This document shows positions 5,269 to 52,810 of a DNA stretch of 64,000 nucleotides, in pieces. The notes under the pieces were generated by a model. It was not told the origin of the DNA. It did no database searches and saw only the letters and a program-made list of their open reading frames with translations. This DNA comes from Eledone cirrhosa. Lineage: Eukaryota. The translations under genes and the position numbers were made by a program. Position 1 is the stretch's first letter; each line of letters begins with the position of its first letter. The stretch is from positions 44,950,001-45,014,000 of the forward strand of contig OZ024753.1 in assembly GCA_964016885.1 (NCBI GenBank), read 5' to 3'.

Positions 5269-33488
<28,220 letters not shown>

Positions 33489-35340: not shown

Positions 35341-35387
<47 letters not shown>

Positions 35388-35389
<2 letters not shown>

Positions 35390-35573
35390 CGAAGGAAATA
35401 TGGTAAGGAACCAGGTGGACCATAACGCACCAAAGTACTCAATACTTAGGGTAGTAGAGTGGGTAATAGGAAAATGTATGACCCCAACGGCAGAGCTCAA
35501 GCCGTTTCGACAGCTATTTCTGGACTAGCCATCGAAACGGTTTGATCTCTGCCGTCGGGGTCATACATTTTCC

Positions 35574-35575
<2 letters not shown>
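35388..35575. mobile_element. Fold-back hairpin element, family B
   Basis: Same conserved segment (ccaggtggaccataacgcaccaaagtactcaatacttagggtagtagagtggg) plus an inverted repeat at 35467-35575, embedded in (TA)n. Confidence 0.6.
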
Positions 35576-35623
<48 letters not shown>

Positions 35624-47805: not shown

Positions 47806-48392
47806 TGAAATCCATTAACAGAGGAGGAACATCTAATTTATTTCAAAGCAATTTCAGACAAGGAAAAGAACAAAACAAAAGGGAATAAAAGAAAGCAACT
47901 GACAGTTATCAATCAGTAAATTCTGTTTTCAATTGAATAAACCACAGAACAATAACATTCTGATAAGATCTATTCTGAGCTAAATAACTTTCTGTTGTGA
48001 TAATAGAGACACGGAAATATAGAGATGTTATAATAATACATGTTATAATTATATATATATATAAATATATATAAGTATGTATATATATATATATATATAT
48101 AACCTCCCAGCCTCACACTCTAAACGTGGTTGGTGTTAGGAAGGGCATCCAGCTGTAGAAAACCCGCCAGACAGTCCTATGCAAGCAATGACAACCACTC
48201 TTGCCTCAAGTGGGAAAACTCCCGTCCAAACCCATGCAAGCGTGGAACATGGACGTTAAACGATGATGATGATATAATATATAGCTCAGGATGTTTCGAC
48301 AGCTAGATCCGGACGGATGGGTGGGTTATGGTCCTCCCAGTATTTTACCACACCCTATCTGATTATAAATATATATGTTGCATATCCAATCT

Positions 48393-48463
48393 TATATATT
48401 TTATCTGATGAAAACGTACTTAAACATCATTGTACCTTTGAAATATGTATAATAAAATATATA
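48393..48463 (+). ncRNA. Second type I hammerhead ribozyme motif of the same family
   Basis: Perfect 12-bp stem I tatatattttat/ataaaatatata. CTGATGA at 48405-48411. Stem II aaa(c)gtac/gtac(c)ttt. GAAA at 48440-48443, then TATGTA, then TA. Predicted cleavage after 48451. Confidence 0.75.
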
Positions 48464-48510
48464 TTTTGATTATGAGAATATTTTTCATTTATTAATATTT
48501 TGAATAATAT

Positions 48511-48642
<132 letters not shown>

Positions 48643-52388: not shown

Positions 52389-52744
52389 TATAGAAAAGCT
52401 TCTACAGGACTAGAACTGTTTCATTCGTGAAGAAATCATCAGAAATCACGAATGAAACAGTTCTAGTCCTGTAGAAGCTTTTCTATATTCAAACATTTAT
52501 ACTCTCCTTTGTATTGAGTACCTTACTTACTGTGGTTACCCCCGATTGAACCCAGGATAAACTTATATATATATATAATGTAGAAAGGCTTCTACAGGGC
52601 TAGAACTGTTTCATTGCGGAGAAATCACCAGGAAGTTTCCTGACGATTTCTCCTGAATGAAACAGTTTTAGTCCTGTAGAAGCCTTTCTACATCTAATAT
52701 ATATACTCTGCTTTGTATTGAGTACCTTACTTAGGGATAAACTT
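52389..52744. mobile_element. Two tandem fold-back hairpin elements, family A
   Basis: Inverted repeats at 52389-52487 and 52579-52692 (ttctacaggrctagaactgtttca...tgaaacagttytagtcctgtagaa), each with a shared tail (gtattgagtaccttactta...ggataaactta) ending in (TA)n. Confidence 0.6.
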
Positions 52745-52754
52745 ATATATATAT

Positions 52755-52810
<56 letters not shown>

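What the first reader, a model, noticed from the sequence alone, without database searches (positions are those of the whole stretch)
48393..48463. Second hammerhead copy with different stem sequences but retained pairing
Seen: tatatattttat CTGATGA aaacgtac-ttaaacatcatt-gtaccttt GAAA tatgta TA|ataaaatatata. Compared with the 25.3-kb copy, the outer stem I and distal stem II sequences differ yet still pair. The mismatch at the 4th position of stem II is kept in both (C.U versus C.C), and stem III changes from TGCGCA to TATGTA, compatible with CpG decay of a palindrome. Inference: retained structure with changed sequence points to selection on the RNA fold in the parent elements, and the shared stem II mismatch may be a family-specific feature.
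Basis: partly seen in the sequence, partly recalled or inferred. Interest (0 to 1): 0.75.

Follow-up and report, generated by a model that had tools for sequence, protein, structure and literature searches.

The report
Penelope-type hammerhead with stem II mismatch
This is one short, lone copy of an abundant repeat in an animal genome that carries a hammerhead self-cutting RNA motif, likely the tail of a Penelope-like jumping gene; that is a known arrangement, and the only unusual point is an unpaired cytosine that is probably kept across the family.

Summary
Real but mostly a known kind. 48393-48463 (+) is a complete type I hammerhead motif: 12-bp stem I, intact core, stem II with a C.C mismatch at pair 4, short self-complementary stem III, predicted cut after A48451. 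It and the 25.3-kb copy are the only two in the window; 0 of 200 shuffles gave one. Over 1,100 contigs per run from the same species align here, so it is a high-copy repeat. In those data the base of stem II swaps A-U for G-C on both sides, and no listed change hits the core. This fits selection on parent elements, but linkage within single molecules was not shown. Short palindromic stem III, (TA)n flank and 5' truncation match published Penelope-like-element hammerheads, which work weakly, as dimers. No reverse transcriptase ORF lies nearby, so the parent is inferred. Corrections: TGCGCA to TATGTA is not CpG decay alone (3 changes, 1 at CpG), and the outer stem I pairing is at chance level. 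The pair-4 mismatch is probably inherited; its conservation and role are untested. This lone copy is probably inactive.

The parts
48393..48404 (+). Stem I, 5' strand (12 nt)
   Evidence: 12 Watson-Crick pairs with 48452-48463; outer part is alternating TA
48405..48411 (+). Hammerhead core C3-A9 (CTGATGA)
   Evidence: sequence; no listed substitution table 3
48412..48439 (+). Stem II: 3 A-U pairs, C48415.C48436 mismatch, 4 pairs, 12-nt loop 48420-48431
   Evidence: A>G at 48412/48413 and T>C at 48438/48439 common in same-species reads; insertions cluster at 48419-48421
48440..48451 (+). GAAA core, short stem III (8-mer A15.1..U16.1, self-pairing with two central G.U), U16.1-A17; predicted cut between 48451 and 48452
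   Evidence: self-duplex -2.2 kcal/mol against -10.5 for copy A
48452..48463 (+). Stem I, 3' strand
   Evidence: first 11 letters identical in copy A
48464..48510 (+). About 47-nt tail of the repeat, ending at a (TA)n run (48511-48528)
   Evidence: multi-copy depth continues to the end of the stretch laid, 48505; TA run position
48374..48392 (+). Short leader of the same repeat; likely 5' truncation point near 48374
   Evidence: a loose-end consensus before 48394 resembles 48374-48391 (15 of 18 letters by eye) and then continues with other sequence; depth falls to about 140-390 at 48363-48386
25286..25356 (+). Copy A: second member, stem I 8 bp, stem II with C.U at pair 4 and 12 distal pairs, perfect palindrome in stem III; (TA)n at 25392-25441
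   Evidence: its stem II fold is lost on the minus strand, which fits an RNA read from +
48283..48370 (+). Internally deleted remnant of a different repeat family directly upstream of copy B
   Evidence: aligns with copies at 24160-24365, 23860-24010 and 35385-35580, all minus; multi-copy

Best explanation
The stretch is a lone copy of a high-copy repeat that carries a complete type I hammerhead motif with a short self-complementary stem III, and it is likely the 5'-truncated 3' end (pseudo-LTR and tail) of a Penelope-like retroelement or of a non-autonomous derivative. Shown: motif anatomy, multi-copy state, about 47-nt tail ending in (TA)n, no coding sequence nearby. Inferred: in the parent RNA (plus strand) two motifs, from tandem pseudo-LTRs or two RNAs, pair through the palindromic 8-mer to build stem III and cut after U16.1-A17 (48451/48452), weakly and perhaps with help from the element's protein. 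Reverse transcription primed at a nicked (TA)n target then pasted truncated copies such as this one. Selection acted on the source elements, which is why subfamilies differ in stem II and stem III letters but keep core and pairing. The C at 10.4 is probably left unpaired in the parents too. This genomic copy is predicted to be inactive in place: the monomer fold is rare, the nearest partner is 23 kb away and pairs poorly, and it lies on the strand opposite the neighbouring gene.
For: Motif and shuffle control. 1156 and 1257 contigs, 2344 and 2416 RAD reads laid at >=80% identity on 223 bases. Both sides of pairs 10.1-11.1 and 10.2-11.2 change compatibly: 48412 A>G 396/812 and 350/884, 48439 T>C 351/1516 and 265/1474, 48413 A>G 372/812 and 370/884, 48438 T>C 554/1514 and 483/1479 reads. 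48435 C>T and 48403 A>G keep G.U pairs. Core 0 of 13 positions changed, p 0.025. Both copies have a (TA)4+ run starting within 60 nt downstream; a random point does so with p 0.128. Predicted share of the monomeric hammerhead fold: 6e-5 (B), 4e-5 (A). Literature: PMC4209133 (parts 1-2 of 4 of the main text, parts 1-2 of 3 of the supplement) reports such motifs in pseudo-LTRs, mostly as single dispersed copies, with palindromic helix III and low activity as dimers; its Fig. S3 lists a shrimp PLE motif with no extra base after A9, A10.1-U11.1, an even palindrome and a UA site. PMC8557442 (passages, section 11, supplement part 2) reports 5' truncation, 30-40-bp tails and (TA)n targets. PMC11167929 (parts 1-2 of 4) shows that one PLE hammerhead cuts only with the element's protein present.
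Against: No RT or GIY-YIG hit: 0 of 117 stop-free frames (>=38 aa, 21.5-28.5 kb and 45.8-52.2 kb) match such a Pfam family at E 0.05, and the 30-aa frame upstream of copy A hit only 3 repetitive proteins, so no PLE parent was found. Changes are not linked per molecule. Two listed changes lack a listed partner change: 48437 T>C (265/1507 and 213/1477 reads, opposite A48414) and 48458 T>C. In contigs 48439 T>C is rare (706 of 272,433 depth in X1). Only 40 of 89 substitution rows were shown, and the 80% threshold favours similar copies. G10.1-C11.1, called highly conserved in PMC4209133, is A-U in both window copies. Folding energy is no better than shuffles. No target-site duplication or tandem copy in the window. 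No cleavage or expression data.
Confidence: 0.75

Rival explanations
1. The repeat is a non-LTR retrozyme: short tandem units whose hammerheads cut monomers that circularise and are re-inserted by a borrowed PLE enzyme; this copy is a solo remnant.
For: One contig in X2 joins 48454 back to 48396 with 18 letters between, a head-to-tail arrangement (table 5c). No ORF nearby. Retrozyme monomers occur dispersed, and retrozymes are proposed to derive from PLEs (bioRxiv 10.64898/2026.07.22.740005, parts 1-2 of 5; PMC7229834, passages).
Against: That joint is one contig of 1257. No tandem unit in the window. Published retrozyme hammerheads are mostly canonical, with a short helix II and loop-loop contacts (PMC7229834 passages); here stem II is long and variable.
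Confidence: 0.15
2. The pair-4 mismatch is not a family trait: the parent had C10.4-G11.4 and the two window copies lost the G independently, or one founder passed on a neutral mismatch.
For: Only two copies were read in full. By eye, 2 of 56 representative motifs in PMC4209133 Fig. S3 also show a pair-4 mismatch (C.A in a sea urchin, U.U in a fluke), so such mismatches can be incidental.
Against: It needs two independent transversions at one site (G>C in B, G>T in A). No C>G change at 48436 is among the 40 rows shown, although neighbouring 48435, 48437, 48438 and 48439 are.
Confidence: 0.25
3. Chance hairpin in AT-rich, microsatellite-rich DNA; no ribozyme ancestry.
For: Folding z-scores only -1.28 and -0.67; no Rfam hammerhead hit; 39% of the window is tandem repeat.
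Against: All 13 core letters in the right order and spacing in two homologous copies; 0 of 200 shuffles; compatible changes at the base of stem II and an unchanged core in the repeat family.
Confidence: 0.03
4. The copy has been co-opted by the host and cuts or regulates a transcript of the neighbouring dystrobrevin-like gene.
For: Copy A lies between coding stretches of that gene; copy B lies about 16 kb upstream of the first one found.
Against: The gene is on the minus strand and both motifs are on plus. Copy B has the weakest stem III palindrome of the four variants computed. Nothing marks this copy out from many others.
Confidence: 0.03

Closest known systems
Type I hammerheads with small palindromic helix III in pseudo-LTRs of metazoan Penelope-like elements (Cervera and de la Pena 2014, PMC4209133; main text parts 1-2 of 4, supplement parts 1-2 of 3 read)
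   Same: Type I order, full core, helix III too short for a monomer and palindromic, helix II longer than 4 bp, many dispersed single copies, high sequence variety within one genome. A10.1-U11.1 and a UA cut site both appear in its Fig. S3 (shrimp, D. willistoni).
   Different: No extra base between A9 and 10.1 (their consensus has one; the shrimp and one hemichordate motif lack it); stem I is longer (8-12 bp); a C.Y mismatch at pair 4 is shared by two divergent copies, which the text read does not describe; no PLE ORF is linked here.
Hydra-clade PLE hammerheads (Craig et al. 2021, PMC8557442; section 11, passages, supplement part 2 with File S2)
   Same: (TA)n insertion preference, hammerhead close to the 3' end, aquatic invertebrate hosts.
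   Different: By eye, 0 of 26 Hydra-clade rows in File S2 show a pair-4 mismatch or this 8-mer type of stem III; many have U.U at the base of stem II and an odd-length loop III. Four short motifs of this family were not found in the supplement text (line breaks could hide a match). Their descriptor may have excluded mismatched stems.
Short-stem-III hammerheads that cleave as dimers (Lunse, Weinberg, Breaker 2016, PMC5785218)
   Same: Palindromic short stem III, PLE association, dimer cleavage (seen only as title and as summarised in PMC6765202 and PMC6466107 passages).
   Different: The paper is not held, so I could not check whether it already shows this stem II mismatch.
Metazoan non-LTR retrozymes (PMC7229834 passages; bioRxiv 10.64898/2026.07.22.740005 parts 1-2 of 5)
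   Same: Non-coding, type I hammerhead, high copy number, solo monomers occur.
   Different: No tandem array in the window; the unit length and any circular RNA are not shown.

Membership tests
Type I hammerhead ribozyme | Core C3-U4-G5-A6-N7-G8-A9, G12-A13-A14, A15.1-U16.1, H17 in type I order | tested here: met
   All present in both copies, H17 = A
Type I hammerhead ribozyme | Stems I and II pair next to the core | tested here: met
   Stem I 12 and 8 bp; stem II 3 bp + mismatch + 4 or 12 bp; both stems are in the predicted minimum-energy fold
Type I hammerhead ribozyme | G10.1-C11.1 (usual, not universal) | tested here: not met
   A-U in both window copies; G and C are common at these places in same-species reads; A-U occurs in published PLE motifs
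Type I hammerhead ribozyme | Match to an Rfam hammerhead model | tested here: not met
   No hammerhead family among 9 matches up to E 10
Type I hammerhead ribozyme | Self-cleavage after H17 | not testable with these tools
   Needs an in vitro assay
Dimer-type PLE hammerhead | Short palindromic stem III, unstable as a monomer | tested here: met
   A: perfect 8-mer, -10.5 kcal/mol; B: pairs at all 8 places only with two G.U, -2.2 kcal/mol; monomer fold share about 5e-5
Dimer-type PLE hammerhead | Covariation across the family | tested here: inconclusive
   Compatible changes on both sides of two pairs, but unlinked, and two unpartnered changes
Penelope-like element (EN+) | RT plus GIY-YIG ORF upstream of the hammerhead | tested here: not met
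   0 of 117 frames near the two copies; no relevant hit for the frame upstream of A. Expected for truncated or non-autonomous copies, but the parent stays inferred
Penelope-like element (EN+) | 5' truncation, short 3' tail, AT-rich or (TA)n target | tested here: met
   B starts about 20 nt before stem I and ends at (TA)n 48511; A ends at (TA)n 25392
Penelope-like element (EN+) | Tandem or inverted pseudo-LTR arrangement | tested here: inconclusive
   Not in the window copies; one contig shows a head-to-tail joint
Hydra clade of PLEs | Clade-specific RT and endonuclease motifs | not testable with these tools
   No genome held and no ORF found; the published Hydra hammerheads differ in stems II and III
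Non-LTR retrozyme | Tandem units, each with a type I hammerhead | tested here: not met
   Only two copies, 23.1 kb apart, with unrelated flanks

The most novel reading that the evidence does not exclude
A large lineage of Penelope-type hammerheads keeps C10.4 deliberately unpaired (C.C, C.U, perhaps C.A) inside an elongated stem II while the pairs around it swap. The mismatch would be a docking site for stem I or for the element's RT-endonuclease protein, standing in for the loop 1-loop 2 contact these motifs lack and tying cleavage to the transposition complex.
Probability: 0.25. Interest if true: 0.55.

Novelty: new variant of a known kind. Interest (0 to 1): 0.27.

Why it matters
The class is well described, so the copy itself adds little. 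The open question is why PLE hammerheads cut so poorly and what helps them in the cell. A mismatch kept at one place while its neighbours covary would give a single-base handle on that: closing it should either speed cleavage (a brake) or abolish it or its protein dependence (a contact). If the mismatch proves incidental, the finding is an ordinary transposon relic.

Tried and rejected
No genome is held for this window, so the genome-wide collection and covariation test could not be run. Pattern scans found 0 matches: strict and relaxed patterns in metagenome contigs, relaxed pattern in viral contigs. Rfam: only microsatellite-driven microRNA matches below gathering score and no hammerhead. 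Only one read overlay is available, so the letter distribution at 48415 and 48436 stays open. No RNA holder listed. A 30-aa frame upstream of copy A with a CRYR motif that I thought might be a PLE C-terminus (recalled resemblance) hit only 3 repetitive proteins: rejected. The dimer energy evaluation returned an invalid value and was not used; 8-mer duplex energies were used instead. nhmmer with a two-copy profile found no third copy (next best E 0.11). A hammerhead on the minus strand of 48283-48370 was considered and rejected: no CTGANGA and no stem I there. Direct CpG decay from TGCGCA to TATGTA rejected (three changes, one at CpG), although the window is CpG-poor (observed/expected 0.29). 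Literature searches for a described stem II mismatch in PLE hammerheads: searches gave 0 papers, one search gave 3 listed, in whose passages read I saw only a U.U at the base of helix II (PMC7229834). PMC5785218 is not held, and bioRxiv supplements were not seen. Earlier-finding look-ups by sequence, near and the first by words were empty.

Full report
Observation. Pair by pair, copy B has a 12-bp stem I, the core CTGATGA at 48405-48411, a stem II of three A-U pairs, a C.C mismatch and four more pairs, GAAA at 48440, the 6-mer TATGTA, and U16.1-A17 with the predicted cut between 48451 and 48452. Copy A has an 8-bp stem I, the same three A-U pairs, a C.U mismatch, twelve more pairs and TGCGCA. 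A descriptor scan finds these two loci among 15 CTGATGA sites in the window; 1 of 200 local dinucleotide shuffles gave any hit and 0 of 200 gave one with a 6-nt insert. A and B share 18 identical letters at the 5' core and 13 at the cut site, but not their flanks. No third copy was found. Folding energy alone does not mark either copy (z -1.28 and -0.67), and Rfam reports no hammerhead.

Which differences carry weight. Distal stem II does: at a fixed register, 4 pairs arise with p 0.022 and 12 pairs with p 2e-5, and copy A's stem II folds on the plus strand only. Outer stem I does not: the 3' strand is the same in both copies for 11 letters, B's extra pairs are alternating TA, and the further helices (5 bp in A, 4 bp in B) have chance rates of 0.19 and 0.40. 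The CpG account of stem III is wrong as stated: TGCGCA to TATGTA needs three changes and only C3>T sits in a CpG. G2>A with C5>T is a compensatory swap that keeps the palindrome (TACGTA), after which one CpG transition gives TATGTA. Alternatively TATGTA is a G.U variant of TATATA, since 48447 G>A is seen in 606 of 1579 and 551 of 1555 reads while 48446 T>C is not among the rows shown. B's 8-mer still pairs with itself at all eight places through two G.U pairs, but weakly: -2.2 kcal/mol against -10.5 for A, -6.5 for the TACGTA form and -3.2 for the TATATA form; A with B gives -1.6.

The family. No genome is held and pattern scans of public contigs were empty. An overlay of four same-species runs on 48283-48505 at 80% identity laid 1156 and 1257 contigs and 2344 and 2416 reads (at most 3 samples, 2 studies, and X1/X2 may be the source sample). 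Summed contig depth rises from about 140-390 at 48363-48386 to about 57,000-82,000 over the 5' core and about 390,000 near the cut site; the tool warns that this is no copy number, so I claim only a high-copy repeat. Of the 40 substitution rows shown (89 in all), 18 fall in the motif, at 16 positions: 0 of 13 core, 4 of 12 loop II, 6 of 16 stem II, 5 of 24 stem I, 1 of 6 stem III (core against the rest p 0.025). At the two base pairs next to the core both sides change compatibly: 48412 A>G in 0.49 and 0.40 of reads with 48439 T>C in 0.23 and 0.18; 48413 A>G in 0.46 and 0.42 with 48438 T>C in 0.37 and 0.33. Loose-end consensuses show a subfamily whose stem II starts GGAC, so it has the usual G10.1 and still has C10.4, and one has C at the free N7 position. 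Against: the changes are not linked per molecule; 48437 T>C (0.18, 0.14) and 48458 T>C have no listed partner change; 48439 T>C is rare in contigs; the identity threshold favours similar copies. No change at 48415 or 48436 is among the rows shown, which fits a kept mismatch but does not measure it.

Boundaries and setting. Copy B seems to begin near 48374, where a read consensus that resembles 48374-48391 goes on with other sequence, and ends at a (TA)n run at 48511; copy A ends at one at 25392 (p 0.128 per random point). Directly upstream of B lies a deleted remnant of another repeat family. No RT or GIY-YIG match was found in 117 frames around the two copies, nor for the frame upstream of A. 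The window holds a dystrobrevin-like gene on the minus strand (EF-hand_2 at 31248-31610; EF-hand_3 at 25875-26075; further stretches at about 32266, 13082 and 12655 found with recalled motifs; the gene name is my recall). Both motifs are on the other strand. No call identified the organism.

Mechanism. Shown: anatomy, multi-copy state, tail and (TA)n flank. From the literature: such motifs lie in pseudo-LTRs of Penelope-like elements, occur mostly as dispersed single copies and cut weakly as dimers (PMC4209133); PLE insertions are 5'-truncated, carry short tails and in several clades prefer (TA)n (PMC8557442); one PLE hammerhead cuts only with the element's protein and is not needed for insertion in vitro (PMC11167929). 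Inferred: in the parent RNA two motifs build stem III through the palindrome and cut after A17; target-primed reverse transcription left this truncated copy; selection acted on source elements. The copy is probably silent in place, with a predicted monomer fold share of 6e-5 and no good partner nearby.

Comparison and novelty. It works like a dimer-type PLE hammerhead and meets the structural tests; membership of a PLE clade is not shown because no ORF was found. A10.1-U11.1, a UA site and the lack of an extra base after A9 all have precedent in Fig. S3 of PMC4209133. A pair-4 mismatch appears, by eye, in 2 of its 56 representatives and in 0 of 26 Hydra-clade rows of PMC8557442 File S2, and searches for a described one found none; PMC5785218 could not be read. 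Earlier notes of this scan on the same genome already claim a conserved pair-4 mismatch in a family of about 100,000 copies and tie it to the Hydra clade; I could test these only in part, and they are not independent support. Verdict: a real motif of a known kind with one probably heritable, untested oddity. Interest 0.27.

Noticed in passing
window 24160-24365 (-), 23860-24010 (-), 35385-35580 (-), remnant 48283-48370 (+): A second repeat family: a 5' inverted arm, then GTC-GAAAC, a 6-bp hairpin and GTC (the 3' half of a hammerhead with a long stem III), with no CTGANGA upstream, and a tail ending in (TA)n. The fold-back falls inside stem II in the two copies that have the arm.
   Followed up: partly
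window 52393-52570 (+), 52578-52760 (+), 30790-30940 (-): A third repeat family with a 5' inverted arm: CTGAYGA, a stem II with U.U at its base, GAAAC, a near-palindromic stem III and GTC. It resembles published Hydra-clade hammerheads more than the finding does; the 5' strand of stem I is replaced by the inverted arm.
   Followed up: partly
contig of run X2 laid on window 48396-48454: One contig joins 48454 back to 48396 with 18 other letters between: a head-to-tail repeat of the motif somewhere in the genome (table 5c).
   Followed up: no
window 12586-32266 (-): Dystrobrevin-like gene (name recalled): EF-hand_2 and EF-hand_3 Pfam hits and a ZZ-like cysteine motif in separate coding stretches.
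   Followed up: partly
window 48102-48261 and 2469-2628: A SINE-like repeat ending in (GAT)n, 93% identical between these two places, with more diverged pieces elsewhere; the copy near 1802-2257 is preceded by an RTE-like reading frame (resemblance recalled; no Pfam hit).
   Followed up: no
window 48415-48416 and 25304-25305: C10.4-G10.5 is a CpG kept in both copies although the window's CpG observed/expected ratio is 0.29.
   Followed up: no
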